Shown here piece by piece: positions 27,727 through 44,228 of a stretch of DNA of 64,000 bases. Positions within the stretch are counted from its first letter, which is position 1, and every line of letters begins with the position of its first letter. A program made the position numbers and the translations under genes. The notes under the pieces were generated by a model. The model made no database searches, was not told the origin of the DNA, and was given only the letters and a program-made list of their open reading frames with translations. The stretch comes from a phage, in the NCBI GenBank assembly GCA_029742005.1, contig GCA_029742005.1_4113.1. One strand, given 5' to 3'.

Positions 27727-27746
27727 CCACCAGCACAAGCTGGTGG
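27727..27746 (+). repeat. inverted Chi octamers forming hairpin CCACCAGC-ACAA-GCTGGTGG
   Basis: Perfect 8-bp inverted repeat whose arms are the E. coli Chi octamer and its complement. Confidence 0.6.
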
Positions 27747-27889
27747 ATTCCCTCTAACAGTATTCAGTACTACATGATAGTCTTCATCCTCCTAGGGTAA
27801 CATAGTGAGGGCTATGATGGCAGTACTGAATACTCCCTTTCAAAAGATAGATCTATGGTATAGTACTGACGGATTTTGGGCGTAGTTAC

Positions 27890-28060
27890 CCTGGATGGAT
27901 TTTGGACGTAGATATGTCTAGCCCTCCAGAAGTCTGGAAGTAAAGATGGCTATCCATCTAGACGGCTAAACGGCTAGATTTCTGGATGGCTGGATGGCTA
28001 GACGTTTGGACGGCTAAACGGCTAGATGGTTACACGTCTGGAAGTATAGACGGCTAAATC
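27890..28060. repeat. iteron-like direct repeat cluster
   Basis: GACGGCTAAACGGCTAGAT at 27961 and 28009, partial at 28049; TCTGGAAGTA twice; palindrome AGATGGCTATCCATCT. Confidence 0.6.
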
Positions 28061-28816
28061 AAAATTTTATTTTGTTTTTTCCAATAGTTCCCCTACCGCG
28101 TGGGGATAGTTTCCCCGCAGTATCTGGAGTTAGATTTTTCTGAATCTGGAATCATTATCTTATAAACTGGGGGCAATGTCAACCGCCTGGACGGATATTT
28201 TTAAAAATTTTTTCAGTACTGAATTTTGGGCGTAACTATGCACCCGGTGGGCTATAGTCTTTCTCGACTTGATGGAACTATTATACAGTACTGAAAAAAT
28301 AAAGCAATACCCTGGAAGCAAAAAAGTTTTAATTAATTTGCTTGCCATCCTGGGCCGTACTATGGTACTATATTTCAGTACTGAGAAAGTGCGTTTACCT
28401 GCTAGGGTGCGGGAGTGTATCCTTTTTTTATATCTTGAATTTTGGGCGTAATTCCGCACCCTCTGGGGTTTCCGCTTTCTCGCGTCTATGTAGTAATTAT
28501 ACGCTTTTTCAGGATCAAGTCAATACCTAAAAACAAAATAATTGAAAATAATTTAACGCGTTTAAACGGCCCGTAACGCCCTGGAATGATTGGAATGGTG
28601 CAAATGTATAGCTTAGGTGTATTAATGCGTTAGAATGCGTCTGAGGCCGTTTTACGGGGTATGGGGATGATTTAGTGGATTGATTCAGTACTGAATGATA
28701 GTACTACTATATAGAAAGATAGTTCCCCTGGATGGTTGCAGTACTGAATGATAGTACTGAATAATAGTTCCCCTATATAGAAAGAAAACTATTTTAAAAG
28801 TATTTGTAGAAAGTAC

Positions 28817-28844
28817 TTGCAAACTATGTTTAACGGCGTATAAT
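28817..28844 (+). promoter_or_regulatory. promoter TTGCAA-16-TATAAT followed by 5' stem-loop at 28856-28877
   Basis: First PeSL-like unit of the 28.8-45.3 kb region. Confidence 0.6.
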
Positions 28845-28899
28845 GTTTTACATCGAGAGCGGGAACACTTCCCGCTACACTTTAAGAGAGATTAATACG

Positions 28900-29262
28900 A
28901 TGGCGACTCAAATCACTAAAATCATGCTTAACCTGGTAAACTTCCGCGATGAGATGAAAGGTCTTCCGGCTGAAACTGTAAAAATTCACATTGCAGCTTA
29001 TCGGGAACTTATTGCAATGTTGCCGCTTAAGCGTGAACAATACGCCGCTACTTTGATGCTTGATTCAATGATCCATATAATGATCTCAAATGATTTAACG
29101 ATGGTTTATCAGTATATGGGTGAATTGTTCGCGGTGTATAGTAAACCAGTACCAGGAATGGAAAGTACAGAAGTATTACACGGTTTAAATTTAAAACAAG
29201 ATGCATGGGATAATATGCCTCGTTTCCTGGTATGGGCTGACAGTGGCAAGATTTACGAATAA
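28900..29262 (+). CDS. hypothetical protein
   Basis: ATG after RBS and hairpin; track start 28843 lies in the promoter. Confidence 0.55.
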   Translation: MATQITKIMLNLVNFRDEMKGLPAETVKIHIAAYRELIAMLPLKREQYAATLMLDSMIHIMISNDLTMVYQYMGELFAVYSKPVPGMESTEVLHGLNLKQDAWDNMPRFLVWADSGKIYE

Positions 29263-29276
29263 GTTTTAGAAAGTAC

Positions 29277-29304
29277 TTGCAAACTAAGTTTAAAAGCGTA
29301 TAAT
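29277..29304 (+). promoter_or_regulatory. promoter TTGCAA-16-TATAAT followed by stem-loop GTGGGGAATAGTTCCCCAC
   Basis: Same architecture as 28817. Confidence 0.6.
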
Positions 29305-29355
29305 GTTTTACATCAGGTGGGGAATAGTTCCCCACTATATAAGAGGATTAAAAAA

Positions 29356-29595
29356 ATGGCTAAATCAAAAATGTTCTTGGGTCACAAAAACAAAACTCAT
29401 TGGAATGTAAGCCTTTGGATTAATAACGATGAGTCATTGTACCGGTTGGCCCAGGACTTTATTGCCGCCAATACTAATCGCAATGATGCGGCCCGTCATA
29501 TGATGTTATTTTTAGAACAGACTGGACAATATAAAACACCGGACGGATTCAAATATAGCACTACTGCGATCCGTGCGGCGATGGTTGGAATGTAA
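29356..29595 (+). CDS. hypothetical protein
   Basis: RBS AAGAGGA; MAKSKMF.. Confidence 0.55.
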   Translation: MAKSKMFLGHKNKTHWNVSLWINNDESLYRLAQDFIAANTNRNDAARHMMLFLEQTGQYKTPDGFKYSTTAIRAAMVGM

Positions 29596-29609
29596 TAGAA
29601 TTTATTTAA

Positions 29610-29643
29610 AGTACTATCGCAAAAAATGATAGTACTTTATAAT
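29610..29643 (+). promoter_or_regulatory. promoter with operator-like inverted repeat AGTACTATC-N9-GATAGTACT before TATAAT
   Basis: Perfect 9-bp arms; -10 at 29638-29643; weak -35. Confidence 0.45.
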
Positions 29644-29680
29644 AGTGTTTTATTCATACACCAACGATAAGGGCAACAGC

Positions 29681-29947
29681 ATGAATATTAAGTATTTTGC
29701 GACGCGTGAACAAGCTCGGATCGCCGCACGCCAGGACGGGGCAACGTTTAAAGATATGGGCGTACAATCGGAACGTGGTAAACGTTGGGCCATTATAAAG
29801 CGTAGTACCGCCAGATCATTACAGTACTGGCTATCTGCTTTAAAGCGTCCTGATAGTGTATCGCGTCGCGTGGTAGAAATAAAGCACGACCGCAAGGGCA
29901 ACCGCGTTACTGTGTACAGTACTAAAAAGATAGCAGTACTTGAATAA
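29681..29947 (+). CDS. hypothetical protein, KYFATREQAR family
   Basis: Paralog of 40678-41073 (shared ..FATREQARI.AR..G.TFKDMG.. and ..HDRKGNRVTVYS..). Confidence 0.55.
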   Translation: MNIKYFATREQARIAARQDGATFKDMGVQSERGKRWAIIKRSTARSLQYWLSALKRPDSVSRRVVEIKHDRKGNRVTVYSTKKIAVLE

Positions 29948-30131
29948 AAGTACTTGCATACTATGTTTAAAGGCGTATAATGTTTTACATCAGGACGGGG
30001 AACGAAATAAGTAACTTCCCGTTAAGTAGCCCAGGAGTAAGGCACACGAAAAACTCCCCTGATAAAATAGTTTGACAAATGTTTTTAAAAGCGTATAATA
30101 CTTACATCAACTACTGAATGAGGGTTACAAA
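29946..30131 (+). repeat. dual-promoter repeat unit, copy 1
   Basis: Near-identical to 39417-39601; promoters at 29954-29981 and 30072-30099. Confidence 0.6.
29988..30070 (+). ncRNA. candidate small RNA between tandem promoters
   Basis: Hairpin ACGGGGAA..CTTCCCCGT; no ATG-initiated ORF; conserved in second copy. Confidence 0.3.
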
Positions 30132-30743
30132 ATGAAAACTATCACTACTACTACTTTCGTTATGGCTTTTTCTGAATTGAACGCAGAACAACAAACGTCA
30201 GCTATCGAACTGGTTCGGGATCGGGAACGTTCAAGCGGTGATGATTTCTTTTCTGAGTCAGTGATCGAGTACTATAAAGAAACAGTACTACCAGAATATG
30301 GAATTGATGACGCTGATTTGCAATTCAGTGGTTTTTGGTCGCAGGGTGACGGTGCATCAATCAGTACTGACCACGTTGACGCAGTGAAGTTTTTACGCAA
30401 GATTAAAGCATTAACTAAGTATCGTTCTATCCGTCACCTGCTGAATGAAGATGATTTGGCGATGAGTGTAAAGCGTTCTCACTCCCACTACTCGCATGAA
30501 AACACTGTAAGCGGGTACATTGAATCGGGGTACACTGATTTAACCGCAAAACAAGAAACGTTAGTTAATGAGCTTGAGGAACTACTCACTGAAACTATTC
30601 GTGAATTATCCCGCAAGTTGTACCGTGATTTAGAGAATGCATATGAGGATCAATTCACTACTGAAAACATTACGGCACTGATTGAGGGTAACGAATATCA
30701 ATTCAATGTTATTGATGGCGTAGTAGAATCTATCGAATATTAA
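30132..30743 (+). CDS. hypothetical protein
   Basis: 203 aa after promoter 30072-30099. Confidence 0.6.
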   Translation: MKTITTTTFVMAFSELNAEQQTSAIELVRDRERSSGDDFFSESVIEYYKETVLPEYGIDDADLQFSGFWSQGDGASISTDHVDAVKFLRKIKALTKYRSIRHLLNEDDLAMSVKRSHSHYSHENTVSGYIESGYTDLTAKQETLVNELEELLTETIRELSRKLYRDLENAYEDQFTTENITALIEGNEYQFNVIDGVVESIEY

Positions 30744-30799
30744 TTCAGTACTGAATCAATGGCGGGAGTGGTTCCCGCCTATAACCAGGAGTAAGCATC

Positions 30800-31033
30800 A
30801 TGTTCGAACAAATTCAAACGACCACAAGCCGGAGCGGAACGAAAGTACATTACATCGCTGATACTGATAAAGGTGTACCCTATTGTGCTGTACACGTAAA
30901 TACTGACGGTGACTATTGGTTAACTGTATACGGGCGTTACTCGTTTGCTTTTAGTGCACATTGTAAGATCCTGGAAGTAGTGAAGCCTACCGGTAAGAAT
31001 ATCACGCCGGGAAAATGTTTTACTAAGCACTAA
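30800..31033 (+). CDS. hypothetical protein, family with 31955-32191
   Basis: RBS AGGAG; shares GVPYCAVHVNT..YW.TVYG.YSF and ..PTGKNIT. Confidence 0.55.
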   Translation: MFEQIQTTTSRSGTKVHYIADTDKGVPYCAVHVNTDGDYWLTVYGRYSFAFSAHCKILEVVKPTGKNITPGKCFTKH

Positions 31034-31119
31034 AAAGTACTTGCATACTAAGTTTAAAAGCGTATAATACTTTATATCGAGGCGGGGGAATGGTTCCCGC
31101 CTTTACTGAGGATTATCTA

Positions 31120-31407
31120 ATGAGCAAAGTAATTAACTATACAGTACTAAGCAAGTCATTATCTATTAGCCAGTGCACCGATGGTTTTTGGCTGTACGAT
31201 GAAACGCGTGGCATGAATTTAGCTATGCGGGAGAAAACTGCTGAGGCGGCGTATTTACAAGCCCTGGAATACTACCAGGAACGTTTAAAGGAAGTAGAAA
31301 ACAATTATCAAAATTTAAAAGAGAAAGTAGATAATTTCGTTGGTCAATTCGTTGACGATGACGAGGAAGACGGGCACTACTGCAACCGTTGCGGATCTTA
31401 CAATTAA
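31120..31407 (+). CDS. hypothetical protein with C-terminal CxxC
   Basis: Promoter + hairpin GGCGGGGGAATGGTTCCCGCC upstream; RBS GAGGA. Confidence 0.55.
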   Translation: MSKVINYTVLSKSLSISQCTDGFWLYDETRGMNLAMREKTAEAAYLQALEYYQERLKEVENNYQNLKEKVDNFVGQFVDDDEEDGHYCNRCGSYN

Positions 31408-31489
31408 GTACTTGCAATTAGTTTTCAGTACTGTATAATGGTTTACATCAAAGGGAGAAATGGTTCTCCCTGGTAATGAGGAAAATAAA

Positions 31490-31711
31490 ATGGCTAATAT
31501 CACTACTCTTTCCCAACTGGAAGCACTGGTTAAATCTATGCGGGAACATGCCGACAAAATCGGCGTACAAGATCCAGCCGTTTGCTTTTGCGACGAATTG
31601 AATGATGATACCCTGGTAATAGCAGAAGTCCAGGACGTTTCTAACTATTCCTCGCGTTACACTGGCGGCGTAGCAAATAAAGGTGACTTCTGTTTATACC
31701 TTACAAAATAA
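31490..31711 (+). CDS. hypothetical protein
   Basis: Promoter + hairpin GGGAGAAATGGTTCTCCC upstream; RBS GAGGAA. Confidence 0.55.
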   Translation: MANITTLSQLEALVKSMREHADKIGVQDPAVCFCDELNDDTLVIAEVQDVSNYSSRYTGGVANKGDFCLYLTK

Positions 31712-31714
31712 CAA

Positions 31715-31747
31715 CGCGGGGAGATAATAACTCCCCGTTACTTTTTC
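31715..31747 (+). terminator. rho-independent terminator
   Basis: CGCGGGGAG..CTCCCCGT hairpin + TTACTTTTTC. Confidence 0.6.
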
Positions 31748-31954
31748 AGTACTGAATCATTTAATAGACGGATCTATGCACCCGGTGGGTTAGTGACTGT
31801 TTCGTCTTGATGTAGTAATTATGCCAGTACTGGATGCACTTGTCAACAATTATTTTTCAAATACTTTTTATTAAAATACTTGCAATTAGTTTTTAAACGC
31901 GTATAATGTTTTGCATAGGGGGAGCGGTTCCCCTGGTAACTAAGGAATAATAAA

Positions 31955-32191
31955 ATGCTTGAACAAATCAAATCAACGTCTTCGAATGTAACGGGAACGG
32001 TAGCACACTTTACTAGTGATGAATCGCGGGGCGTTCCCTATTGTGCTGTACATGTAAACACTGAGGGTAACTACTGGTTTACGGTTTACGGTTCATATTC
32101 ATTTGGACGGCCAGGGCATCAAAAAATTCTGGATAAAGTACAGCCAACGGGTAAAAATATCACTGCTGAAATGTTTTATAAAAAATCATAA
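31955..32191 (+). CDS. hypothetical protein, paralog of 30800-31033
   Basis: Promoter + hairpin upstream; RBS TAAGGAA. Confidence 0.55.
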   Translation: MLEQIKSTSSNVTGTVAHFTSDESRGVPYCAVHVNTEGNYWFTVYGSYSFGRPGHQKILDKVQPTGKNITAEMFYKKS

Positions 32192-32275
32192 AGTACTTGC
32201 AATTAGTTTTTAGTACTGTATAATATTTTACATCGCAAGGGGGAGCGGTTCCCCCTGGTAACTAAGGATAATCAA

Positions 32276-32575
32276 ATGAAAATTGCAATCATCGCCCTGG
32301 CTTTATCTGTTTCCTCTTTCGCTGTTAATGCGTCATTAGATGTAAGTAGTGAAAAATTCATTCAGTGCACTGTTGCAATGACCGATGAAAGTACTGGCGA
32401 GATTGTTTTAAAGGATTTAGAGATCCAGCCGGAAGCATTTAAAAACGGGCCGTTCCATGAAGAAGACGAAAAAGGTAGCACGACAATTTATTACGATGCA
32501 AGTACTAAACGCGGTTCGGTCACTGTTATGGATACTGAGAAAGTAACTCATACTGGCGTTATTAATTGCCGTTGA
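32276..32575 (+). CDS. secreted protein with signal peptide
   Basis: MKIAIIALALSVSSFAVNA; promoter + hairpin upstream. Confidence 0.6.
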   Translation: MKIAIIALALSVSSFAVNASLDVSSEKFIQCTVAMTDESTGEIVLKDLEIQPEAFKNGPFHEEDEKGSTTIYYDASTKRGSVTVMDTEKVTHTGVINCR

Positions 32576-32596
32576 TAGATACTACGGGGTAACATC

Positions 32597-32827
32597 ATGA
32601 CTAAGCGAATTGTTTTACTTAACGAAAGCAGTACTACACAACTACTTAACGCCGTGCATTATGATATTGAAACGAGCGTTAATCTTATCAGTACTGTCGT
32701 ACTGTTGGACACTGGAAAGGTCGCCAATGATAAAGCGATTGCAGGTATACTAACGGATCTTGAGCCTGGTAGCAGTGCACCAATAACGTTAAATGGTAAA
32801 GTGTTTAACATTTTACTTACTGATTAA
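32597..32827 (+). CDS. hypothetical protein
   Basis: 76-aa ORF, terminator immediately downstream. Confidence 0.5.
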   Translation: MTKRIVLLNESSTTQLLNAVHYDIETSVNLISTVVLLDTGKVANDKAIAGILTDLEPGSSAPITLNGKVFNILLTD

Positions 32828-32833
32828 GTACAT

Positions 32834-32856
32834 AGCCCACCCGGTGGGCTTTTTTG
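32834..32856 (+). terminator. rho-independent terminator AGCCCACC-CGGTGGGCT + T-run
   Basis: Perfect stem + TTTTTTG. Confidence 0.7.
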
Positions 32857-33059
32857 TTTTTGTAGTATCGTAGTACTGAGATACTTTGAAAATAGTTTTA
32901 AAAAATAGTTGACATTACCGCAGAAAAGCGTAGAATGTATTACATCAAGACGGGGAGCACTAAGTAGACCGCCAGTAAGTCGAACGAAAAACTGGACACG
33001 TCGAGAAAACTTTGATACACTAATAAACGTAAACTAAACTTTAATTGAGGATTTATAAA

Positions 33060-33542
33060 ATGGCTAATGTAAAATCATTCATCAAAGCACTGGTAGCAAA
33101 TGAAACTAACGTCGCGGCAGAGATCCTGGCTGATCTGGATAACGATACCATGAAAGCGGTACGCAATAATTTTAACATCGCTTATAGTACTGCGAAAGAA
33201 CTACAAGCAAATAAAGCGGCAGAAATTGAAGCGGCAAAGGCGGCCCGTGAAGCAGAACTACAAGCAACAATTGAAAGTATCCAGGCGGCAGTAGTTGGAT
33301 TGGATCTGGAAGTAGTTACAGAGATGGCACAAAAAGCCCTGGCGGTTAAGTATGGGGAAGATAAGCCGGAATCTAAGCCTAAAAAATGGATTCAAAAACG
33401 TGTAGCGGTAGTACTGGACAACGGGGAAGAATATCTGATTCCGGTGCGTGGTAACTGCATTGCGGTAGTACTGGATGCGATTAACTCCAGTGGTATGACT
33501 CGCGAGGAATGGATCGAAGCTCATCGCAAAGTGGAAGCATAA
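33060..33542 (+). CDS. hypothetical Ala-rich protein
   Basis: RBS GAGGA; long 5' UTR after promoter TTGACA..TAGAAT near 32909. Confidence 0.55.
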   Translation: MANVKSFIKALVANETNVAAEILADLDNDTMKAVRNNFNIAYSTAKELQANKAAEIEAAKAAREAELQATIESIQAAVVGLDLEVVTEMAQKALAVKYGEDKPESKPKKWIQKRVAVVLDNGEEYLIPVRGNCIAVVLDAINSSGMTREEWIEAHRKVEA

Positions 33543-33563
33543 CAATTAAAGTACTGAATCACT

Positions 33564-33590
33564 AGCCCACCTTAAACGGTGGGCTTTTTT
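33564..33590 (+). terminator. rho-independent terminator AGCCCACC-TTAAAC-GGTGGGCT + T-run
   Basis: Stem + TTTTTTG. Confidence 0.7.
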
Positions 33591-33609
33591 GTGTTTATCG
33601 TTTACCAGG

Positions 33610-33679
33610 CCACCAGCACCGCCTAGAAACGATTCTAACGCATTAAACTGATTATCTGATGCATTGCCCTAGCTGGTGG
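33610..33679 (+). repeat. inverted Chi octamers separated by about 55 nt
   Basis: CCACCAGC at 33610-33617 and GCTGGTGG at 33672-33679. Confidence 0.5.
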
Positions 33680-33827
33680 CGTTAAGGCTGTAAGAACGCG
33701 ATTGAGAGCGTTTAAAGTATTTTGCAAAAAGTAATAAAAAGTACTTGCACGATTAAGAGATTAGCGTATAATGTTTTACATCGAGAGGGGGAAACGGTTC
33801 TCCTTCCAAATCAAAGGAATTAAAACA

Positions 33828-34055
33828 ATGGCTATCGTAATCACTCGCGTAACTGGTACTACTGGCAATTCTTCTACTGTTGCTGTAATTACTAATAAGA
33901 AAGGTGCGGAATTGCATTTTGCAATGGATAAATGGGCCGTTAATGAGTTCGGTCAGTGGGCAAGTGTAGCATACATTGAAACCTATCAAGTGCCGTCAAT
34001 TAGTTTAACTGATTTGGGCGTTGAGCGTATCCTTTGCCTGGATGAATTAAATTAA
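33828..34055 (+). CDS. hypothetical protein
   Basis: Promoter + hairpin upstream; RBS AAAGGAA. Confidence 0.55.
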   Translation: MAIVITRVTGTTGNSSTVAVITNKKGAELHFAMDKWAVNEFGQWASVAYIETYQVPSISLTDLGVERILCLDELN

Positions 34056-34141
34056 AAAAGTACTTGCAAAGTAAATCAGATAAAGTATAATACATTACAT
34101 CAAGGGGAGAAATGGTTCTCCCTGATAATGAGGAAACTAAT

Positions 34142-34285: not shown

Positions 34286-34297
34286 AAATATTATCAC

Positions 34298-34333: not shown

Positions 34334-34366
34334 AGATTTTATCAAGACAACTAAGAGGAAATTAAA

Positions 34367-34711: not shown

Positions 34712-34791
34712 TTAGCTTTACTTTATGCAGATACTTTGATATAGTGTCTGCATAGGGGAAAGAAATTAAATTAACTTAAGAGGATAGTATA

Positions 34792-37678: not shown

Positions 37679-37935
37679 TGGCTGTAGGATTCGCGAAAGA
37701 CGGGGCCGAGCAAGACGAGATTAACGCAGTGATTCAGGCCGCCGTAAACCACGCTAGAAAGCAAATTAACGCACAAATAGAATCACTGATACATTGCCGC
37801 GACTGCGGCGATATAATCCCTGAGAAACGACGCCAGGCCGTTAAGGGATGTAAGTACTGCATAACTTGCCAGGAGGATCATGATAGTACTTTTAAACGTC
37901 CCCCGCGTAATTGTTGGCATAGATCTATGAGATAA
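37678..37935 (+). CDS. TraR/DksA-type C4 zinc-finger protein
   Basis: CRDCGDIIPEKRRQAVKGCKYCITCQ = CxxC-N17-CxxC typical of the family. Confidence 0.55.
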   Translation: MAVGFAKDGAEQDEINAVIQAAVNHARKQINAQIESLIHCRDCGDIIPEKRRQAVKGCKYCITCQEDHDSTFKRPPRNCWHRSMR

Positions 37936-38016
37936 AAAGTATTGACAGTACTATCCAGTAGTGTTATAGTACTTACATCAAGGGGAAACATCTTCCCCTA
38001 CTAAGAGGAAATGAAA

Positions 38017-38205
38017 ATGGAAAACTTATCAAGTATTTTAGTACAAGATGATTTCGGTAATCCTGGAAGTGCTATCATTGTTCGGGGTAATAAAGCAACA
38101 TTTGTTATTGCTGGTGGACCTGTACAGCGTAGCATTAAAAACAATGCCGTTACTATTAATAATGTACGCTATCGCTTAGATAAAGAATTGATTCATAAAC
38201 TGTAA
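38017..38205 (+). CDS. hypothetical protein
   Basis: Promoter + hairpin upstream; RBS AAGAGGAAA. Confidence 0.5.
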   Translation: MENLSSILVQDDFGNPGSAIIVRGNKATFVIAGGPVQRSIKNNAVTINNVRYRLDKELIHKL

Positions 38206-38232
38206 TATTAATTTAATAGAGGATAACAATAA

Positions 38233-38556
38233 ATGTACATTCATACTACTATCACAAAGGAAGTCCGTTGCCAGTTCGAAAGTATTCCGGGCGTATGTTT
38301 CATCACTGGTACGTTTTCCCCTGGTGATCGTGATAATCCAGTACTGTTACAATTACGCCATCCATCATGGGATAAAGCATTTGATCTACCGTTGAATGAA
38401 TTCGCAACTACTGCTGAAAAGTACATTAAAAATATTCGCGAGAATGATCGACTATTCATTAATGCTTTTAGTGATTCCGCGTTAAGCGAGATCCACGGCG
38501 TATTGGTTGCAATCATGGAATCAATGGAGAAAACTAAATTCAAACAAGGTGAATAA
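38233..38556 (+). CDS. hypothetical protein
   Basis: RBS TAGAGGA. Confidence 0.55.
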   Translation: MYIHTTITKEVRCQFESIPGVCFITGTFSPGDRDNPVLLQLRHPSWDKAFDLPLNEFATTAEKYIKNIRENDRLFINAFSDSALSEIHGVLVAIMESMEKTKFKQGE

Positions 38557-38639
38557 AAACTATTGACAATGTAATCTAGTACTGTATAATAAGTTACATG
38601 AAGGGGAGAAATGATTCTCCCCACTGAGAGGAAAGAAAA

Positions 38640-38852
38640 ATGCAAGGTCAACTAATCGTTCGTAAATGGTCTGATACTAACGAAAAACCGTGGGATGTAC
38701 AATACATCGGACCGGACGGTGTTTCACGTTATCAACCTGGCGTAACGCATAGTACTGAGCAATATGCCGCCGCTCACCGCGAACGCCTGTTAGAATCCAT
38801 GAAACAGGGATTCTGTGAAAAATTCATTCAAGATCATTGGCTGAAAGATTAA
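38640..38852 (+). CDS. hypothetical protein
   Basis: Promoter TTGACA-16-TATAAT + hairpin upstream; RBS GAGAGGAAA. Confidence 0.55.
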   Translation: MQGQLIVRKWSDTNEKPWDVQYIGPDGVSRYQPGVTHSTEQYAAAHRERLLESMKQGFCEKFIQDHWLKD

Positions 38853-38869
38853 TATAAGGAGTACAGCTT

Positions 38870-38962
38870 ATGCAAATGAATCCGATGATTATTGTTTTAG
38901 CTGTACTTATGATCATTCATGCAATTGTAGAAGTATTAACGCAATCAGGAGTAATAAAATGA
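38870..38962 (+). CDS. tiny hydrophobic peptide (30 aa)
   Basis: RBS TAAGGAG; one TM-like segment. Confidence 0.35.
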   Translation: MQMNPMIIVLAVLMIIHAIVEVLTQSGVIK

Positions 38963-39132
38963 TTCAAGTAGAATTATCAGTACTGAAAGATCTGTTTTAT
39001 CGGATTGGTACTACTGGCGAATATCCGAAGGGTGATAATGCAAAACTTTACGTATCACTCGACTTATGGCAACGCGAACAATTAGCAACAGCGTGGCGTA
39101 AAGGTAAAGCAGATCGCGAGGTGAAAGCATGA
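38959..39132 (+). CDS. small hypothetical protein (57 aa)
   Basis: ATGA overlap with upstream ORF. Confidence 0.4.
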   Translation: MIQVELSVLKDLFYRIGTTGEYPKGDNAKLYVSLDLWQREQLATAWRKGKADREVKA

Positions 39133-39278
39133 AAGAATTCTTATTCGAAGTAGTGTTCCAGGGCGTAGGAAGTAACCAACTGATTCGATCAAGTGGTTAC
39201 AATGTTAACCAGGCATGGAATAACATTAAACAAATGTACCCGAACGCTATCACCTATCGCAACCCAAAACAAGTTTAA
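39129..39278 (+). CDS. small hypothetical protein (49 aa)
   Basis: ATGA overlap; terminator-promoter follows. Confidence 0.4.
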   Translation: MKEFLFEVVFQGVGSNQLIRSSGYNVNQAWNNIKQMYPNAITYRNPKQV

Positions 39279-39292
39279 AAAGAATTGAAAAA

Positions 39293-39325
39293 GGGATTGA
39301 CTCCGGTCAGTCCCTTTGCTATTAT
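39293..39325 (+). terminator. terminator-promoter composite
   Basis: GGGATTGACTCCGGTCAGTCCC hairpin; TTGACT-17-TATTAT. Confidence 0.6.
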
Positions 39326-39416
39326 ATATTCATTGAAACAATCTAGCCCACAGGGTGCATAAATGTATCTATTGTTTGCTGGTGGCTAGTACTATCAAGT
39401 ACTGAAAACTATTTTT

Positions 39417-39601
39417 AAAAAGTACTTGCAAAGTATCACGATAAGCGTATAATGTTTTACATCAGGACGGGGAACGAAACAAGTAACTCCCCGTTAAGTA
39501 GTCCAGGAGTAAGACATACGAAAACCTCCCCTGATAAAATAGTTTGACAATAGAAATTAAACGAGTATAATACTTACATCAACCACAAAGAGGAATACAA
39601 A
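39417..39601 (+). repeat. dual-promoter repeat unit, copy 2
   Basis: Near-identical to 29946-30131. Confidence 0.6.
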
Positions 39602-39802
39602 ATGAAACATTTTACTTTCGGTGTAGTAGGCTTTACAGTATCCAGCGGCGTTTATAAATCAGAACGCGGTGCTAAAAATGCAGCAAGTCGGGCGTATGGT
39701 TCACAGCGTGACTTACAGGTCGGTTATATTAGTAACATTAATAACATGTTTATTCCTGTTTCACAGCGTAAAGCGGGTAACATGAAATGGGAAACAATTT
39801 GA
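39602..39802 (+). CDS. hypothetical protein
   Basis: RBS AAGAGGAA. Confidence 0.5.
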   Translation: MKHFTFGVVGFTVSSGVYKSERGAKNAASRAYGSQRDLQVGYISNINNMFIPVSQRKAGNMKWETI

Positions 39803-39891
39803 TAAAATAGTTTGACAATAGTTTTTAGTACTGTATAATAGTTTACATCAAGTGGGGAATAGTTCCCCACCTAACAAAGAGAGAAATTAAA

Positions 39892-40167
39892 ATGCGGATT
39901 CTACTGACAGCTAACGAAATCGAGCAAGTACTGACTACTAACCTGGAAGACTGGAAACGTGATGCAGATATCCAGGCGGTTCAATGCCTTAACGATAAGT
40001 TAACGCCAGATGACTTAAGCACGATTGTTGATCCACAATTTTATGAAGATATTCACGACATGGATTTAAGCGTAGAGGATGTACTTGATAAGCACTACAT
40101 TGATACTGATTTACAGGTTTACGGTCGTAAAAACTTTATCACTATTCACGACATTTACAATACTTAA
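39892..40167 (+). CDS. hypothetical acidic protein
   Basis: Promoter + hairpin GTGGGGAATAGTTCCCCAC upstream. Confidence 0.55.
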   Translation: MRILLTANEIEQVLTTNLEDWKRDADIQAVQCLNDKLTPDDLSTIVDPQFYEDIHDMDLSVEDVLDKHYIDTDLQVYGRKNFITIHDIYNT

Positions 40168-40254
40168 GTATTGACAAAGTATCTTAGTACTGTATAATAG
40201 TTTACATCAAGTGAGGGGAATGGTTCCCCTCCTAACAAAAAGAGAGAAATTAAA

Positions 40255-40578
40255 ATGGCTATGATCCTTACCCAGAAAGTAGAAATGAAAATTGTAACTT
40301 CCTTTGACATTAAAGTTAATCGGTGGACTGATAGCCACGGCAATACTTACCACTCATGCTACGTGTCTGCATTGATTGGTGACCGCTGGGAAGACCTGGG
40401 ACATGAAACCTTTACTTACGGTTACGGTACACAAGGCGAATACACGGGCTTGGAGATCATTAAAGAAACTGTAATAGGTTTCAACCCGAAAGAGAAAGTA
40501 CTACACAGAATTGAGGATGAGATCAACAAAGAAATTACAGTTCGTTACTACGATGTAAAACGTAAGAAAGACATGTAA
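40255..40578 (+). CDS. hypothetical protein, paralog of 34367-34711
   Basis: Promoter + hairpin upstream; C-terminus VKRKKDM. Confidence 0.55.
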   Translation: MAMILTQKVEMKIVTSFDIKVNRWTDSHGNTYHSCYVSALIGDRWEDLGHETFTYGYGTQGEYTGLEIIKETVIGFNPKEKVLHRIEDEINKEITVRYYDVKRKKDM

Positions 40579-40592
40579 TAGAATCCATTTAA

Positions 40593-40629
40593 AGTACTAT
40601 TTGACATTACCCAGATAGTACTTTATAAT
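40593..40629 (+). promoter_or_regulatory. promoter TTGACA-17-TATAAT bracketed by IR AGTACTAT/ATAGTACT
   Basis: -35 40601-40606; -10 40624-40629. Confidence 0.6.
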
Positions 40630-40677
40630 AGACTCTAACTTGTAGTACTAATTAACTTAACTAATAGGATGTACACC

Positions 40678-41073
40678 ATGATTACTAAATTCTTCGCTAC
40701 CCGTGAACAAGCTCGCATCGTTGCCCGTGAAGAAGGTGAAACATTTAAAGACATGGGCAAAGATGCACCGAAAGGACAACGCTGGGCGGTACAGTTCAAA
40801 GAGATCTCTGATATTGTGAATTCACCTGAACCAGTACTTACTGAAGCAGAACTAAAGCAAGCTCAAGAACTGGCTGAAGTACTGAACGCTCAAGATGACT
40901 TCTTGGAAGGTTCTGATATTCAAGTACAAGTGAATAGTAATGCATGGACTCACGCGGATCACCTGGCAAACCTTAAGCGTCCAAGTGAACTGATTCGTAA
41001 CCAGAAAGAGATCCGTCATGACCGTAAAGGAAACCGTGTAACAGTATACAGTAAACGCCGCCAGGTTATCTAA
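40678..41073 (+). CDS. hypothetical protein, KFFATREQAR family
   Basis: Paralog of 29681-29947. Confidence 0.55.
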   Translation: MITKFFATREQARIVAREEGETFKDMGKDAPKGQRWAVQFKEISDIVNSPEPVLTEAELKQAQELAEVLNAQDDFLEGSDIQVQVNSNAWTHADHLANLKRPSELIRNQKEIRHDRKGNRVTVYSKRRQVI

Positions 41074-41095
41074 TAACTTGCAGTACTAACAACAC

Positions 41096-41120
41096 GGCGG
41101 GTTCAGTTCCCGCCTTTTTT
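41096..41120 (+). terminator. rho-independent terminator
   Basis: GGCGGG-TTCAGTT-CCCGCC + TTTTTT. Confidence 0.7.
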
Positions 41121-41135
41121 ATAGGATAAACTAAA

Positions 41136-41390
41136 ATGATGAAGGTACAACTATCTAAAGATAATATCTTGCGGGTACACTATAAAGCACCACAGAGAAT
41201 CATCACAAAGGCCGTACAGCTTGCTAATGAGTTTATTAATGGTAGTCTATTACCCAGGAAGTTAAGCAACGGAAAACTACGTGTTATCGATGTAGACACT
41301 AACAATAGAATAGTAATTGAGAGTACTGGAAAAATTAATCTATATGAACACCAACAATACAATAAAAAAATAAAACTAATATCACGTTGA
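41136..41390 (+). CDS. hypothetical protein
   Basis: RBS TAGGATAAA. Confidence 0.5.
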   Translation: MMKVQLSKDNILRVHYKAPQRIITKAVQLANEFINGSLLPRKLSNGKLRVIDVDTNNRIVIESTGKINLYEHQQYNKKIKLISR

Positions 41391-41446
41391 CAGTACTCAA
41401 TTGTTTTAGTATTATGTATCTATACCAACACAGAGAGAGAAACAAA

Positions 41447-41665
41447 ATGAAATTATCTAAAATCGAAAAGAAAACTATTGATGAAGCAGTGAAGCACGGT
41501 TATACCTTTCGTAATGATTCACATTTTACCAATTTTCAACAAGGGTATCGTACTATTAAAAAACTAATTGACAAAGGTTTATTAGTTGAAGTCAATAACG
41601 GCAATGGCATTGAGTATCAACCAACACAAGACGCATTATCACTAAAGAAATATTCTATTATCTAA
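41447..41665 (+). CDS. hypothetical protein
   Basis: Promoter TTGACAGTACTCAATTGTTTTAG-TATTAT upstream. Confidence 0.5.
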   Translation: MKLSKIEKKTIDEAVKHGYTFRNDSHFTNFQQGYRTIKKLIDKGLLVEVNNGNGIEYQPTQDALSLKKYSII

Positions 41666-41722
41666 TTGACAGTACTCAAATGTTTTAGTACTATGTACGC
41701 ATACCAACACGGGGAAAACAAA

Positions 41723-41950
41723 ATGATTACTTTAGAAAAACGTATCAAAGAGACTACAACGCTGGTGGAACTGTTAACCGTTCTTAAATGCCGGGTAACT
41801 CCATTCAGTACACCGGACTTTATCAACATGGTGGACGTTAACGGTCGATATCGTATTGCGGTCGAACAAGGTACGGCAAAAGTATTCAGTACTAAAAATA
41901 CGCGTGAAGTATTCCACGCAGTTCAAGTAAAAAAAAGTAGTTGCCATTGA
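41723..41950 (+). CDS. hypothetical protein
   Basis: Near-identical duplicated promoter upstream. Confidence 0.5.
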   Translation: MITLEKRIKETTTLVELLTVLKCRVTPFSTPDFINMVDVNGRYRIAVEQGTAKVFSTKNTREVFHAVQVKKSSCH

Positions 41951-41997
41951 TAGTAAAGTACTGTAATATAGTTTCATTAACTCAAGGAGTCAACACA

Positions 41998-42582
41998 ATG
42001 CGTAACTATACTAAATTCATCCGTTCACTTCATGCAATGGAAACCAACAAAGAGATCCTTTCAGCTTGTCGGTTAGCTGGACTGGAGATCGTCGGTGCGG
42101 GTTCTTCCCGTATTGTATTCGCTTTAAATGATCGGTTAGTGATTAAGGTCGCGAATTGTGATGCGGGTGTAGAACAAAATGAAACTGAATGTAAGGTATG
42201 GAATTTTTTAGATTATGACCGTCCGCACCTTAAACAGTTCTTTGCCAAGGTGCATATGCATTTATGCGATCCTGATAATCTGTTTATTGTTATGGATCGT
42301 TTGAGTACTGCAAGCAAAGGCAGTGTAAAGCATGTAAACGCGTGCAATGAGTTAAAGTACAATATTAAACGTAATACGGTAGAACGCCAACACCATTTCG
42401 CTGATGCTCTCAATCACGTTGATGATACATTATCCACACTAACGATAAGAGATATCAGAAAACAGAATATCGGCCAGGATCGCAACGGCTTGATTAAAGT
42501 ACTTGATTACGGTTTAACCCGCAATATCTGGAATCAGTACTATAAAAAACGTGATGTTAACGCGATAACTATAACACGATAA
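41998..42582 (+). CDS. protein kinase-like protein
   Basis: GAGSSRIVF (Gly loop), VIKVA (Lys), IRDIRKQN (catalytic loop), KVLDYG (DFG-like); RBS AAGGAG. Confidence 0.5.
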   Translation: MRNYTKFIRSLHAMETNKEILSACRLAGLEIVGAGSSRIVFALNDRLVIKVANCDAGVEQNETECKVWNFLDYDRPHLKQFFAKVHMHLCDPDNLFIVMDRLSTASKGSVKHVNACNELKYNIKRNTVERQHHFADALNHVDDTLSTLTIRDIRKQNIGQDRNGLIKVLDYGLTRNIWNQYYKKRDVNAITITR

Positions 42583-42596
42583 AAAAGATTAAAAAA

Positions 42597-42629
42597 GGGA
42601 TTGACTCCAGTCAGTCCCTTTGCTATTAT
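42597..42629 (+). terminator. terminator-promoter composite
   Basis: GGGATTGACTCCAGTCAGTCCC hairpin; TTGACT-17-TATTAT. Confidence 0.6.
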
Positions 42630-42803
42630 ATATTCATTGAGAGATAACTCACTGACCCATAGGGTGCGGAAGTGTATCTATTATATAAGTATTCAGTACT
42701 GAAAACTATTTGATAAAAAGTACTTGCAAACTATCTCAAAGAGCGTATAATGTTTTATATCGAGAGGGGGAAATGGTTTCCCCTCAAGTCCAGGAGATAC
42801 ACC

Positions 42804-43067
42804 ATGAACACTATCGAAATCACTATCAATGCACACGTATACGACAACGTAGTACTGCAAACTACTATGACCGCTAACGATACCAGTACTTTGCGGAATA
42901 CTGTTATTAGTGCTGTATGTGCCGCTATCGGTGATGTCGCCCTGGAAAATGCAAAACACGTAAACGATGGTTTCACTATGTGCAAACGTGATAACGCAAA
43001 ACATATCATCGTAGAAGGTTACGGCGGTGTAGAATATAATGTTTATATGAAAAAAGTACTTGCATAG
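42804..43067 (+). CDS. hypothetical protein
   Basis: Promoter + hairpin GAGAGGGGGAAATGGTTTCCCCTC upstream. Confidence 0.55.
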   Translation: MNTIEITINAHVYDNVVLQTTMTANDTSTLRNTVISAVCAAIGDVALENAKHVNDGFTMCKRDNAKHIIVEGYGGVEYNVYMKKVLA

Positions 43068-43134
43068 TACTGAATAAAGCGTATAATGTTTTGCATAGGG
43101 GGAGATATCCTCCCCCACTAAAAGGAGTATTAAA

Positions 43135-43359
43135 ATGGCTAACTTTGATGAACTGATGCGGGAAGTAGCTAACCTGGCAGAAGAGAAGAAATCATTCGAT
43201 TCTATCTATAACACCGCTCACCGTGATTCAGTACTGGCATGTAACCAGGATCAAAAAGATGAACTAATCGCCACATATCATGAAGCATGGAAGTACTACC
43301 GACAATGGGAGAAAGAAGAAAGCGAGTCTACCATCGAAGGTATCAATAATCTAATCTAA
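43135..43359 (+). CDS. hypothetical protein
   Basis: Promoter + hairpin upstream; RBS AAGGAG. Confidence 0.55.
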   Translation: MANFDELMREVANLAEEKKSFDSIYNTAHRDSVLACNQDQKDELIATYHEAWKYYRQWEKEESESTIEGINNLI

Positions 43360-43370
43360 AAGTTTTATTT

Positions 43371-43407
43371 CAGTACTATTGACATAGCTTGATAGTACTG
43401 ATATGAT
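43371..43407 (+). promoter_or_regulatory. promoter TTGACA-17-TATGAT bracketed by IR CAGTACTAT/ATAGTACTG
   Basis: -35 43379-43384; -10 43402-43407. Confidence 0.55.
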
Positions 43408-43434
43408 AACTTTACTAACTAAAGGGGAAACATA

Positions 43435-43692
43435 ATGGAACAGTTCACACAATATCGGGTAAATCCTCAAGCGATGGCCTACGTAGAAGACCATAAAACG
43501 TTACCAGTACTGCAACCAGTTAAAGGCCATATCTATCGTGCAATGTCGTGGAGTGCGGCCCAGGATGGATATAAAACCGTCGCCGTGGGGATGTATTGCG
43601 GGAATGGTGAATGGTTTGATCCTAACAATCCGATTGCACTTGACAGTACTGAAAAAATGAAATGGGCCGACTACATCGAAGATATTTCATAA
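43435..43692 (+). CDS. hypothetical protein
   Basis: RBS AAAGGGGAAA. Confidence 0.55.
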   Translation: MEQFTQYRVNPQAMAYVEDHKTLPVLQPVKGHIYRAMSWSAAQDGYKTVAVGMYCGNGEWFDPNNPIALDSTEKMKWADYIEDIS

Positions 43693-43782
43693 AAACTATT
43701 TGACAGTACTAACCAGTAATGTATAATGTTTTACATAGAGCGGGGGAATAGTTCTCCCGCCAATAGTTTGGAGTAAAACATT

Positions 43783-43983
43783 ATGTCTATCGCTATCGCC
43801 CTGGTTGAAGTACTGAAAGAAGCTAAAGCCAACCTTATCGATGTACAGATTAAGGAATTGCAAAACGGCTTAATCGGCTGTACTTGTACCGCTGGTGGAG
43901 CGGCAGACTATCGAGAACACGAATCACTCGAATCACTGGTTCGGTATCTTACCATGATCGTTGATGATTGGAGAATCATCTAA
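43783..43983 (+). CDS. hypothetical protein
   Basis: Promoter + hairpin GCGGGGGAATAGTTCTCCCGC upstream. Confidence 0.55.
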   Translation: MSIAIALVEVLKEAKANLIDVQIKELQNGLIGCTCTAGGAADYREHESLESLVRYLTMIVDDWRII

Positions 43984-44000
43984 CAAAAAAGAATAAAAAA

Positions 44001-44033
44001 GGGATTGACTCCGGTCAGTCCCTTTGCTATTAT
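44001..44033 (+). terminator. terminator-promoter composite
   Basis: GGGATTGACTCCGGTCAGTCCC hairpin; TTGACT-17-TATTAT. Confidence 0.6.
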
Positions 44034-44228
44034 ATACGCATAGACAAAAACTAGCCCACTGGGTGCATAAGTGTATCCAAAATATATAGTTAATAACGGT
44101 GAGTAACTATCTGCTGGTGGAGTGAAAACTATTAATAAAAAAAGTATTGACAAAGTATATCAGTACTGCGATAATGTATCTCGTAGGGCGGCAATGGTGC
44201 GACGGCCCACAAAGTTAGGAGATTCAAA

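What the first reader, a model, noticed from the sequence alone, without database searches (positions are those of the whole stretch)
27727..44120. Chi octamer (GCTGGTGG) enrichment, including inverted Chi pairs
Forward-strand GCTGGTGG occurs at 3713, 27739, 33672, 37397, 38110, 39378, 43891 and 44113, five of them intergenic. For an 8-mer of this composition in AT-rich DNA fewer than one copy would be expected in 64 kb. At 27727-27746 and 33610-33679 a reverse Chi (CCACCAGC) pairs with a forward Chi as an inverted repeat. Chi attenuates RecBCD degradation in E. coli, so clustered Chi sites could protect linear phage DNA or recombination intermediates if the host is enterobacterial.
Basis: partly seen in the sequence, partly recalled or inferred. 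Interest (0 to 1): 0.45.

Follow-up and report, generated by a model that had tools for sequence, protein, structure and literature searches.

The report
Chi sites packed into phage terminal repeat
The cluster of E. coli Chi sites is real and fills the ~18 kb repeat at both physical ends of this giant E. coli phage's DNA, where host RecBCD would attack, so it most likely blunts that attack and promotes end-joining recombination, as already proposed for phage P1 and some lambda relatives.

Summary
GCTGGTGG occurs 14 times in the window against ~0.6 expected. Ten copies lie in 27,727-44,120. The window comes from an Asteriusvirus-type E. coli jumbo phage.

The Chi block coincides with the genome's long direct terminal repeat (DTR), window 27,142-45,475. 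I mapped this from fEgEco12, whose ends were determined experimentally.

- In a complete 352 kb relative, 11 of 28 Chi sites lie in the 21 kb DTR (P = 2.5e-8).
- Two distant genera with defined DTRs show the same enrichment at non-homologous positions: 14 sites in Klebsiella phage fENko-Kae01 and 9 in Pectobacterium phage CBB.
- The Pseudomonas relative PA5oct has none.
- Within the genus, Chi octamers are intact in 55 of 58 comparisons, against 66% for other octamers.
- Minus-strand sites sit nearer the left end and plus-strand sites nearer the right end, each facing incoming RecBCD.

Best explanation (inferred, not tested): the DTR Chi sites stop RecBCD degradation inside redundant DNA and load RecA to recombine the two repeats. 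This is a new member of a known kind (P1, LLS-type lambdoids), apparently unreported for jumbo phages.

The parts
27142..45475 (.). Long direct terminal repeat (DTR), present once in this window because the two copies are collapsed. 27142 is the left physical end of virion DNA and 45475 the right physical end. It carries the early genes.
   Evidence: fEgEco12 position 1 (ends confirmed by PhageTerm and restriction digests) aligns to window 27142, and the G17 record end maps to the same base. fEgEco12 position 20,993 maps to about 45475. 22 of the window's 25 strong sigma70-like plus-strand promoters lie inside.
27727..27734 (-). Chi facing the left DNA end, 586 bp inside it. Left arm of the outward-facing Chi pair.
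   Evidence: Conserved in 5 of 6 other Asteriusvirus DTRs and in Klebsiella phage fENko-Kae01.
27739..27746 (+). Chi facing the right end. Right arm of the left-terminal pair, and the last barrier before RecBCD moving leftward leaves the DTR.
   Evidence: 6 of 6 intact. The arms are invariant while the 4-nt spacer varies (ACAA, TTGT, TTAA).
33610..33617 (-). Second Chi facing the left end, 6.5 kb inside it.
   Evidence: Intact in 4 of 6 relatives and mutated to CCACTAGC in G17 and UE-S1, so it is the least constrained site.
33672..33679 (+). Chi facing the right end, intergenic.
   Evidence: 6 of 6 intact.
37397..37404 (+). Chi facing the right end, intergenic. Overlaps the 3' arm of an AGCCCAC/GTGGGCT stem.
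   Evidence: 6 of 6 intact.
38110..38117 (+). Chi facing the right end, inside ORF 38011-38205 (codons GCT GGT GGa, Ala-Gly-Gly).
   Evidence: 6 of 6 intact.
39378..39385 (+). Chi facing the right end, intergenic. Sits in a short insertion within one copy of a four-copy intergenic module.
   Evidence: 6 of 6 intact.
41761..41768 (+). Chi facing the right end, inside ORF 41666-41950 (acG CTG GTG Gaa).
   Evidence: 6 of 6 intact.
43891..43898 (+). Chi facing the right end, inside ORF 43783-43983 (GCT GGT GGa).
   Evidence: 5 of 5 covered relatives intact.
44113..44120 (+). [quoted passage not shown] Intergenic, in a separate insertion in another copy of the four-copy module.
   Evidence: 5 of 5 covered relatives intact.
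45455..45483 (+). Conserved sequence at the right DTR boundary (…GGGCGGGTAATGTCT|TAGCGAGC). Likely the terminase cut region.
   Evidence: The same …CT|TAGC(G/C)A junction occurs at the annotated DTR ends of fEgEco12, fENko-Kae01 and CBB.

Best explanation
The window is from an Asteriusvirus-type jumbo phage of E. coli. Window 27,142-45,475 is its ~18 kb direct terminal repeat, present at both ends of the linear virion DNA and carrying the sigma70-driven early genes. Natural selection keeps about ten copies of the host's Chi octamer inside this repeat and almost nowhere else.

Proposed mechanism (inferred, not tested):
1. RecBCD can load only at a double-strand end.
2. From the right end it moves leftward and meets eight plus-strand Chi sites from their 3' side, the first 1.36 kb in. 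From the left end it moves rightward and meets the minus-strand Chi 0.59 kb in, then a second at 6.5 kb.
3. At Chi, RecBCD stops destroying the 3'-ended strand and loads RecA.
4. Because this happens inside the repeat, only redundant DNA is lost, and the RecA-coated tail has a homologous partner: the other repeat copy, on the same or another genome. The outcome would be circularisation or concatemer formation, or recombination-primed replication, instead of degradation into unique genes.
5. With a per-encounter recognition probability of 0.3-0.4 (assumed from my own knowledge of the literature), eight sites stop about 94-98% of enzymes and two sites about 51-64%.

Shown: the sites, their confinement to the repeat, their placement and orientation relative to the ends, and the signs of selection. 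Inferred: Chi activity, protection and recombination.
For: Enrichment: 14 against 0.6 expected in the window; top-ranked octamer in the block under order 5; about 30-fold on each strand separately (plus 8 against 0.15-0.28, minus 2 against 0.05-0.10).
Identity of the block as the DTR.
Confinement: in the complete relative EC22.5-2, 11 Chi lie in the 21.3 kb DTR and 17 in the other 330.7 kb (P = 2.5e-8). fEgEco12 has 12 in its DTR and none in the ~7.7 kb of unique flank examined.
Independent lineages: fENko-Kae01 has 14 Chi in its DTR (rank 1 octamer under order 3) and 2 in the next 25 kb. CBB has 9 in its DTR and 3 in the next 22.5 kb. Apart from the left pair, these sites lie in sequence that does not align with the window.
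Gains by separate insertions in two of four copies of an intergenic module.
Purifying selection: 55 of 58 octamers intact against 65.9% for background octamers.
Placement: minus sites lie nearer the left end and plus sites nearer the right (mean relative position 0.26 and 0.61; p = 0.0035).
Host tracking: no GCTGGTGG in the 39 kb DTR of the Pseudomonas relative PA5oct.
The DTR is not host-derived DNA.
No homolog of the T4 gp2 end protector was detected (control gp4 found at 1e-11), and no recognisable anti-RecBCD gene lies in the DTR.
fEgEco12 DNA cuts as predicted with restriction enzymes, so its DNA is probably not heavily modified.
Precedents: P1 and LLS-type lambdoid phages.
Against: There is no functional evidence. 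Chi activity, RecBCD sensitivity and the order in which the ends enter the cell are unknown for these phages.
The 27:6 plus:minus ratio is not distinguishable from the ~3:1 expected from strand composition (p = 0.25), so the excess of plus sites need not mean anything.
The left end has only two correctly oriented sites, and one of them is lost in G17 and UE-S1.
Relatives encode their own recombination proteins (UvsX, gp46/47, UvsW, endonuclease VII). In lambdoid phages, Chi richness goes with lacking such functions.
An anti-RecBCD protein could be hidden among the roughly 500 unannotated genes, in which case Chi would be irrelevant once it is made.
PA5oct shows no enrichment of the proposed Pseudomonas Chi, so there is no positive co-variation with the host.
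The conservation P-value is not corrected for shared ancestry.
The DTR boundaries are transferred from relatives, not measured on this genome.
Confidence: 0.65

Rival explanations
1. Protection or decoy only. The Chi array neutralises RecBCD by switching off or disassembling the few enzymes in the cell, and limits RecBCD-fed CRISPR spacer capture from the ends. The phage's own UvsX and gp46/47 system does all the productive recombination, and host RecA-mediated joining of the repeats plays no part.
For: Relatives encode a T4-like recombination set. No gp2-type end protector was detected. Multiple Chi sites lie close to both ends. Chi-dependent inactivation of RecBCD and Chi-limited spacer acquisition are established for E. 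coli (my own knowledge, not tested here).
Against: It does not by itself explain why the sites stop at the repeat boundary. Protection alone would work equally well a few kb further in, whereas a need for a homologous partner predicts confinement. It overlaps the main explanation rather than excluding it.
Confidence: 0.2
2. The octamer is recognised by something other than RecBCD, for example a phage DNA-binding, packaging or replication protein specific to the terminal repeat. Its identity with Chi would then be coincidental.
For: Other short motifs are also strongly DTR-enriched: promoter words, AGTACT-containing words and ribosome-binding-site words. Chi ranks only 39th among DTR-specific octamers when overlapping words are counted separately. 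The left-terminal pair is a conserved palindrome at a fixed distance from the end in two genera.
Against: The word is exactly the 8-nt Chi with no flanking conservation. It recurs at non-homologous positions in phages of three enterobacterial host genera and is absent from the Pseudomonas-host relative. The placement by orientation fits RecBCD entry. A phage-protein site would be expected to drift with its protein across such divergent genera.
Confidence: 0.08
3. By-product with no function of its own: base composition or codon usage of a GC-richer early region, hitch-hiking on repeats or terminator hairpins, or captured host DNA.
For: The DTR is GC-richer than its flanks (0.37-0.40 against 0.31-0.35). 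The three sites at 12.5-13.0 kb are a glycine-codon by-product. G17's annotators called the left pair a terminator. Two sites lie in a repeated module.
Against: Markov models fitted to the block itself still give 10 against ~1 expected. 7 of 10 sites are intergenic. The flanks differ. In the module, Chi sits only in separate insertions. The pair lacks a U-tract and the DTR has no Rfam match. There is no match in 5,426 E. coli genomes. Octamers are conserved above background. PA5oct's DTR has similar composition and zero copies.
Confidence: 0.04

Closest known systems
Phage P1: Chi-dense terminal redundancy
   Same: Chi sites are concentrated where virion DNA ends fall, on both strands. The proposed role is RecBCD- and RecA-promoted recombination between terminal direct repeats to circularise the injected genome. 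P1 yield drops about 20-fold in recA or recBC hosts.
   Different: P1 is a 95 kb temperate, headful-packaging phage with variable 5-10 kb redundancy, so Chi is spread over tens of kb near pac. Here the phage is a ~350 kb virulent jumbo phage with fixed ends and an exact ~18-21 kb repeat, and Chi stops at the repeat boundaries. No dependence on RecBCD or RecA is known for these phages.
LLS-type lambdoid phages with Chi clustered at the right end (Zheng et al. 2025; Bobay et al. 2013)
   Same: Many Chi sites lie near one DNA end, mostly oriented to act on RecBCD entering from that end. LLS growth is enhanced by RecBCD. The authors interpret this as using host recombination.
   Different: Those are cos phages without terminal repeats, and they lack their own recombination module and any RecBCD inhibitor. 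The jumbo-phage relatives encode UvsX, gp46/47 and UvsW. The correlation that defines that class is therefore not met here.
Phage T5: long terminal repeat carrying pre-early genes
   Same: A virulent coliphage with a long exact terminal repeat (10.2 kb) that carries host-RNA-polymerase-driven first genes. T5-like phages over-represent Chi genome-wide.
   Different: T5's repeat has only 2 Chi sites, so dense DTR-confined Chi is not a general property of DTR coliphages. T5 has a defined first-step DNA transfer; nothing comparable is known here.
T4 gp2 DNA-end protector
   Same: It addresses the same problem, shielding injected linear DNA ends of a large T4-related myovirus from RecBCD.
   Different: It is a protein cap, not a DNA signal. 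No gp2 homolog was detectable in the complete relative genome.

Membership tests
E. coli Chi site (RecBCD regulatory octamer) | Exact sequence 5'-GCTGGTGG-3' | tested here: met
   14 exact matches, 10 of them in the DTR. No flanking extension.
E. coli Chi site (RecBCD regulatory octamer) | The host has a RecBCD that recognises this octamer (enteric bacteria) | tested here: met
   The window is 90-95% identical to phages isolated on E. coli. The host of this particular genome is inferred from that similarity.
E. coli Chi site (RecBCD regulatory octamer) | Approached from its 3' side by RecBCD coming from a double-strand end | tested here: met
   Eight plus-strand sites face the right end (first at 1,355 bp) and two minus-strand sites face the left end (first at 586 bp).
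E. coli Chi site (RecBCD regulatory octamer) | Chi-dependent nicking, hotspot activity or protection in vivo or in vitro | not testable with these tools
   Needs RecBCD assays or genetics.
Phages with terminally clustered Chi (P1 / LLS class) | Significant concentration of Chi near virion DNA ends | tested here: met
   11 of 28 genome-wide sites lie in the 6% of the genome that is DTR (P = 2.5e-8). The same holds in fENko-Kae01 and CBB.
Phages with terminally clustered Chi (P1 / LLS class) | Excess of the orientation active from the nearby end | tested here: inconclusive
   Placement by orientation is significant (p = 0.0035), but the 27:6 strand ratio matches the composition-expected 3:1 (p = 0.25).
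Phages with terminally clustered Chi (P1 / LLS class) | No phage recombination module and no RecBCD inhibitor | tested here: not met
   The relative CBB encodes UvsX, gp46/47, UvsW and endonuclease VII. No inhibitor is recognisable among the 41 DTR ORFs. The rest of the genome was not scanned.
Phages with terminally clustered Chi (P1 / LLS class) | Growth helped by host RecBCD or RecA | not testable with these tools
   No data found for Asteriusvirus.
Long direct terminal repeat of Rak2-like / Asteriusvirus jumbo phages | Homologous to, and sharing boundaries with, an experimentally defined DTR | tested here: met
   fEgEco12 positions 1 and 20,993 map to window 27142 and ~45475. The G17 record end maps to the same left base. 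The right junction motif is conserved in four phages.
Long direct terminal repeat of Rak2-like / Asteriusvirus jumbo phages | Physical ends or doubled read depth in this very genome | not testable with these tools
   No reads or virion DNA are available for the window's source.
Intrinsic terminator (for the 27727-27746 pair, as annotated in G17) | GC-rich stem-loop followed by a U-tract | tested here: not met
   The stem is present (-15.7 kcal/mol), but the downstream sequence is ATTCCCTCTAAC with no T-run. The scan did not list it.

The most novel reading that the evidence does not exclude
In a whole clade of enterobacterial jumbo phages, the long terminal repeat doubles as a DNA-encoded anti-RecBCD and pro-recombination device that replaces a T4 gp2-type protein cap. 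An outward-facing Chi pair about 0.5 kb from the left end and a plus-strand Chi array reaching to about 0.4-1.4 kb from the right end would disarm the cell's few RecBCD molecules. They would also hand the ends to RecA before any phage gene is expressed, even though the phage later makes its own recombinases. The strictly conserved plus-strand array would then predict that the right end is the exposed, first-entering end.
Probability: 0.3. Interest if true: 0.6.

Novelty: new member of a known kind. Interest (0 to 1): 0.45.

Why it matters
It extends the idea that phages use Chi to exploit RecBCD from temperate P1 and lambdoid phages to virulent jumbo phages that encode their own recombination machinery. 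It also gives an unusually clean natural layout: fixed ends, an exact repeat, Chi confined to the repeat, and each orientation nearer the end it faces.

The predictions are directly testable with recBCD, recD, Chi-blind recC and recA hosts. The result also offers a reason why these phages keep ~20 kb repeats and how they may cope without a gp2-like end protector. Chi content inside a DTR could become a computable clue to host range for uncultured jumbo phages.

Tried and rejected
- **tRNA genes in the window:** none found, so the sparse-ORF block is not a tRNA region.
- **Rfam on the DTR:** no match at E <= 0.1.
- **Composition or codon artefact:** rejected by dinucleotide shuffles, order-1 to order-5 Markov models and strand-specific models. 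The order-6 model is saturated because nearly every GCTGGTG and CTGGTGG is already inside a Chi, so I disregarded it.
- **Longer hidden motif or repeat hitch-hiking:** rejected. The flanks differ, and in the four-copy module Chi occurs only in separate insertions.
- **Terminator reading of the left pair (as annotated in G17):** no U-tract.
- **Host-derived DNA:** no megablast match in the E. coli genome collection.
- **Anti-RecBCD gene in the DTR:** the PHROGs scan of 41 concatenated ORFs gave only 'unknown function' families, a DksA-like zinc finger and a weak, partial 'DNA ligase' match. This is negative only for described families and only for the DTR.
- **T4 gp2 homolog:** none by tblastn. 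A remote homolog cannot be excluded.
- **Positive host co-variation:** the proposed Pseudomonas Chi (GCTGGCGC) is not enriched in PA5oct's DTR (1 copy), so only the negative half of that test worked.
- **T5 as a general DTR precedent:** only 2 Chi sites in its repeat.
- **Orientation excess as evidence:** set aside, because composition predicts about 3:1.


Full report
**1. The observation**

An exact search finds GCTGGTGG 14 times on the two strands, against 0.60 expected from dinucleotide-preserving shuffles (maximum 2).

The three minus-strand copies sit in a glycine-rich ORF (12445-13164, minus strand) as GGT-GCT-GGT-GG, so they are a coding by-product. Ten sites (8 plus, 2 minus) lie between 27,727 and 44,120.

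In 27,000-46,500, Chi is the top-ranked over-represented octamer under an order-5 Markov model (10 observed, 1.03 expected). Outside that block it is unremarkable. The order-6 model is saturated and uninformative. The bases flanking the octamers are not conserved, so the unit is exactly 8 nt.

**2. What the region is**

The window is 90-95% identical, in mosaic fashion, to about 350-385 kb Escherichia jumbo phages of the 121Q / PBECO4 / G17 group, genus Asteriusvirus. The host therefore uses GCTGGTGG as Chi.

The block is packed with consensus sigma70 promoters and small plus-strand ORFs. 22 of the window's 25 strong promoter-like sites lie in it.

- fEgEco12: 20,993 bp, confirmed by PhageTerm and restriction digests.
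- vB_Ec-M-J: 21,525 bp.
- fENko-Kae01: 19,736 bp.
- CBB: 22,456 bp.

fEgEco12 position 1, its left physical end, aligns to window 27142. The end of the G17 record maps to the same base. fEgEco12 position 20,993 maps to about window 45475, at a junction motif (…CT|TAGCGA) shared by fEgEco12, fENko-Kae01 and CBB.

The Chi block is therefore the DTR (27,142-45,475; 18,334 bp), collapsed to one copy in this window. In the Pseudomonas relative PA5oct, the authors report from RNA-seq that many DTR genes are highly transcribed early in infection. By analogy, the DTR here is the early region.

**3. Confinement to the repeat**

I fetched the complete 351,992 bp relative EC22.5-2. It has 28 Chi sites. 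Eleven lie in the 21.3 kb DTR and 17 in the remaining 330.7 kb (Poisson P = 2.5e-8).

fEgEco12 has 12 in its DTR and none in the adjacent ~7.7 kb of unique DNA examined. In the window, the figures are 10 in 18.3 kb against 4 in 45.7 kb.

Ranking all octamers by DTR specificity in EC22.5-2 puts Chi 39th. The words above it that I inspected (the top 25) are overlapping pieces of the early-promoter consensus, the AGTACT motif and the ribosome-binding-site region. Chi is the one DTR-specific word I examined that transcription or translation signals do not explain.

**4. Evidence for selection**

a. *Independent lineages.* Klebsiella phage fENko-Kae01 has 14 Chi sites in its annotated DTR (12 plus, 2 minus; rank 1 octamer under order 3) and 2 in the next 25 kb. 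Pectobacterium phage CBB has 9 (7 plus, 2 minus) in its DTR and 3 in the next 22.5 kb. The three DTRs barely align. Apart from the left-terminal pair, which the window and fENko-Kae01 share, the Chi sites lie at non-homologous positions.

b. *Independent gains.* In a four-copy intergenic module (36283, 39290, 42594, 43998), two copies lack Chi. The other two carry it in separate short insertions at different positions.

c. *Purifying selection.* Across six other Asteriusvirus DTRs at 90-94% identity, Chi octamers are intact in 55 of 58 comparisons, against 65.9% for all other octamers (binomial P about 1.5e-7, not corrected for shared ancestry). Plus-strand sites are intact in 46 of 46 comparisons. 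The three losses are all minus-strand sites. In the left pair, the arms are invariant while the 4-nt spacer (ACAA, TTGT, TTAA) and the flanks vary.

d. *Host tracking.* PA5oct's 39 kb DTR has similar composition (36.5% GC) and no GCTGGTGG. The proposed Pseudomonas Chi is not enriched there either, with one copy. This is a negative control rather than positive co-variation.

e. *Not host DNA.* The DTR has no match in 5,426 complete E. coli genomes.

f. *Intergenic preference.* 7 of the 10 sites are intergenic, against about 33% non-coding DNA in the DTR (p = 0.019).

**5. Geometry**

RecBCD recognises Chi only when it approaches from the 3' side (stated). In virion DNA the left end is at 27142 and the right end at 45475.

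| End | RecBCD direction | Correctly oriented Chi sites | First site from the end |
|---|---|---|---|
| Left (27142) | rightward | 2 (minus strand: 27727, 33610) | 586 bp |
| Right (45475) | leftward | 8 (plus strand) | 1,355 bp (44113-44120) |

The corresponding first-site distances in relatives are 578 and 1,361 bp in fEgEco12, 484 and 375 bp in fENko-Kae01, and 3,514 and 1,429 bp in CBB.

Across the three lineages, minus-strand sites lie nearer the left end and plus-strand sites nearer the right. Mean relative positions are 0.26 and 0.61 (Mann-Whitney p = 0.0035).

Both inverted pairs have the minus site on the left and the plus site on the right. Each site therefore faces outward, and the pair works as a barrier from either direction.

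The 27:6 plus:minus ratio differs from 1:1 (p = 1.6e-4) but not from the ~3:1 expected from strand composition (p = 0.25). Each strand separately is enriched about 30-fold.

**6. Mechanism (inferred)**

Chi sites inside the repeat would convert RecBCD from a nuclease into a RecA loader while it is still in redundant DNA. The resulting 3' tail has a homologous partner in the other repeat copy. That allows circularisation, concatemer formation or recombination-primed replication.

This explains why the sites stop at the repeat boundary: beyond it, a singly infecting genome has no partner. It is the model proposed for P1's terminal redundancy and is close to that for LLS-type lambdoid phages.

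Supporting context:
- No T4 gp2 end-protector homolog was detected, while the positive control gp4 was found at E = 1e-11.
- No recognisable anti-RecBCD gene is present among the 41 DTR ORFs.
- fEgEco12 DNA is cut normally by restriction enzymes.

Points against or unresolved:
- Relatives carry UvsX, gp46/47, UvsW and endonuclease VII. The lambdoid correlation between lacking a recombination module and having many Chi sites therefore does not hold here.
- The role may be limited to the first minutes of infection, or to protection only.
- Which end enters the cell first is unknown.

**7. Novelty**

Chi clustering near phage DNA ends is published for P1 and relatives and for many lambdoid phages. 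Genome-wide Chi excess is published for T5-like phages.

Searches combining Chi with jumbo phage, Asteriusvirus or direct terminal repeat found nothing relevant. The fEgEco12 authors suggest the repeats circularise the genome but do not mention Chi or RecBCD.

I classify this as a new member of a known kind. Its distinctive features are exact confinement to a fixed long DTR, its occurrence in virulent jumbo phages that have their own recombinases, and a conserved outward-facing Chi pair about 0.5 kb from the left end.

Noticed in passing
whole window; EC22.5-2 genome (L001-L008): The palindrome AGTACT (often CAGTACTG) is hugely over-represented: 269 copies in the window against ~22 expected, and 919 against ~119 in the 352 kb relative. 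It is by far the most enriched 6-bp palindrome. It is genome-wide, two-thirds of copies are in coding DNA, and it is 2-3 times denser in the DTR. In 10 early promoters AGTACTG abuts the -10 box (…AGTACTG-TATAAT). It is also enriched in CBB's DTR. Its function is unknown; it could be a protein-binding or modification site.
   Followed up: partly
EC22.5-2 genome (L001-L008): Several GC-rich 6-bp palindromes are completely absent from the 352 kb genome although 8-32 copies of each are expected: CGCGCG, CCGCGG, CCCGGG, CCATGG, AGGCCT and AGCGCT. This looks like restriction-site avoidance.
   Followed up: no
window 27142-28842: The first ~1.7 kb of the DTR has no ORF of 100 aa or more. It contains a perfect consensus promoter (TTGACA-N16-TATAAT at 27507-27534), then the Chi hairpin, many CAGTACTG copies and a terminator-like hairpin at 28404-28423. 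This could be an early ~0.9 kb non-coding RNA. PA5oct's DTR has annotated lncRNAs. There is no Rfam match.
   Followed up: partly
window 36283, 39290, 42594, 43998: A four-copy intergenic module: a 12-bp-stem hairpin AAAGGGATTGACTCCGGTCAGTCCCTTT, then GCTATTATAT, a conserved AGCCCACAGGGTGCATAAGTGTATC block and a TTGCAA/TTGACA promoter. It is probably a terminator-promoter cassette that has been duplicated between early genes.
   Followed up: partly
window 45455-45483; L009 ~20993; L011 ~19736; L012 ~22456: The right DTR boundary falls at a junction conserved across three genera (…CT|TAGC(G/C)A), preceded by GGGCGGGTAA or GGCCAGTAA. It is a candidate terminase cleavage signal.
   Followed up: partly
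window 27735-27738: The 4-nt loop of the Chi-pair hairpin is ACAA here but TTGT, its reverse complement, in fEgEco12 and EC22.5-2. That is the signature of an inversion of the whole palindrome.
   Followed up: no
window 11204-22803, minus strand: Nine tandem paralogous ORFs of about 370-396 aa, annotated in relatives as RCC1-like 'regulator of chromosome condensation' repeat proteins. Copy number and identity vary between relatives.
   Followed up: no
window 12445-13164, minus strand: A glycine-rich ORF (239 aa) whose GGT/GCT repeats create three Chi octamers at ~255 bp spacing. All three are conserved in EC22.5-2. They lie outside the DTR and are most simply a coding by-product.
   Followed up: partly
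window 45560-53600, plus strand: Immediately right of the DTR is a long run of some 30 tightly packed, overlapping ORFs of 65-90 aa with almost no intergenic space. This is a different architecture from the promoter-rich DTR.
   Followed up: no
L014 (phage T5, 1-12000): T5's 10.2 kb terminal repeat has two plus-strand Chi sites (8127, 8689), about 1.5-2.1 kb from the repeat's right boundary. In the right-hand copy they would face the right DNA end.
   Followed up: no
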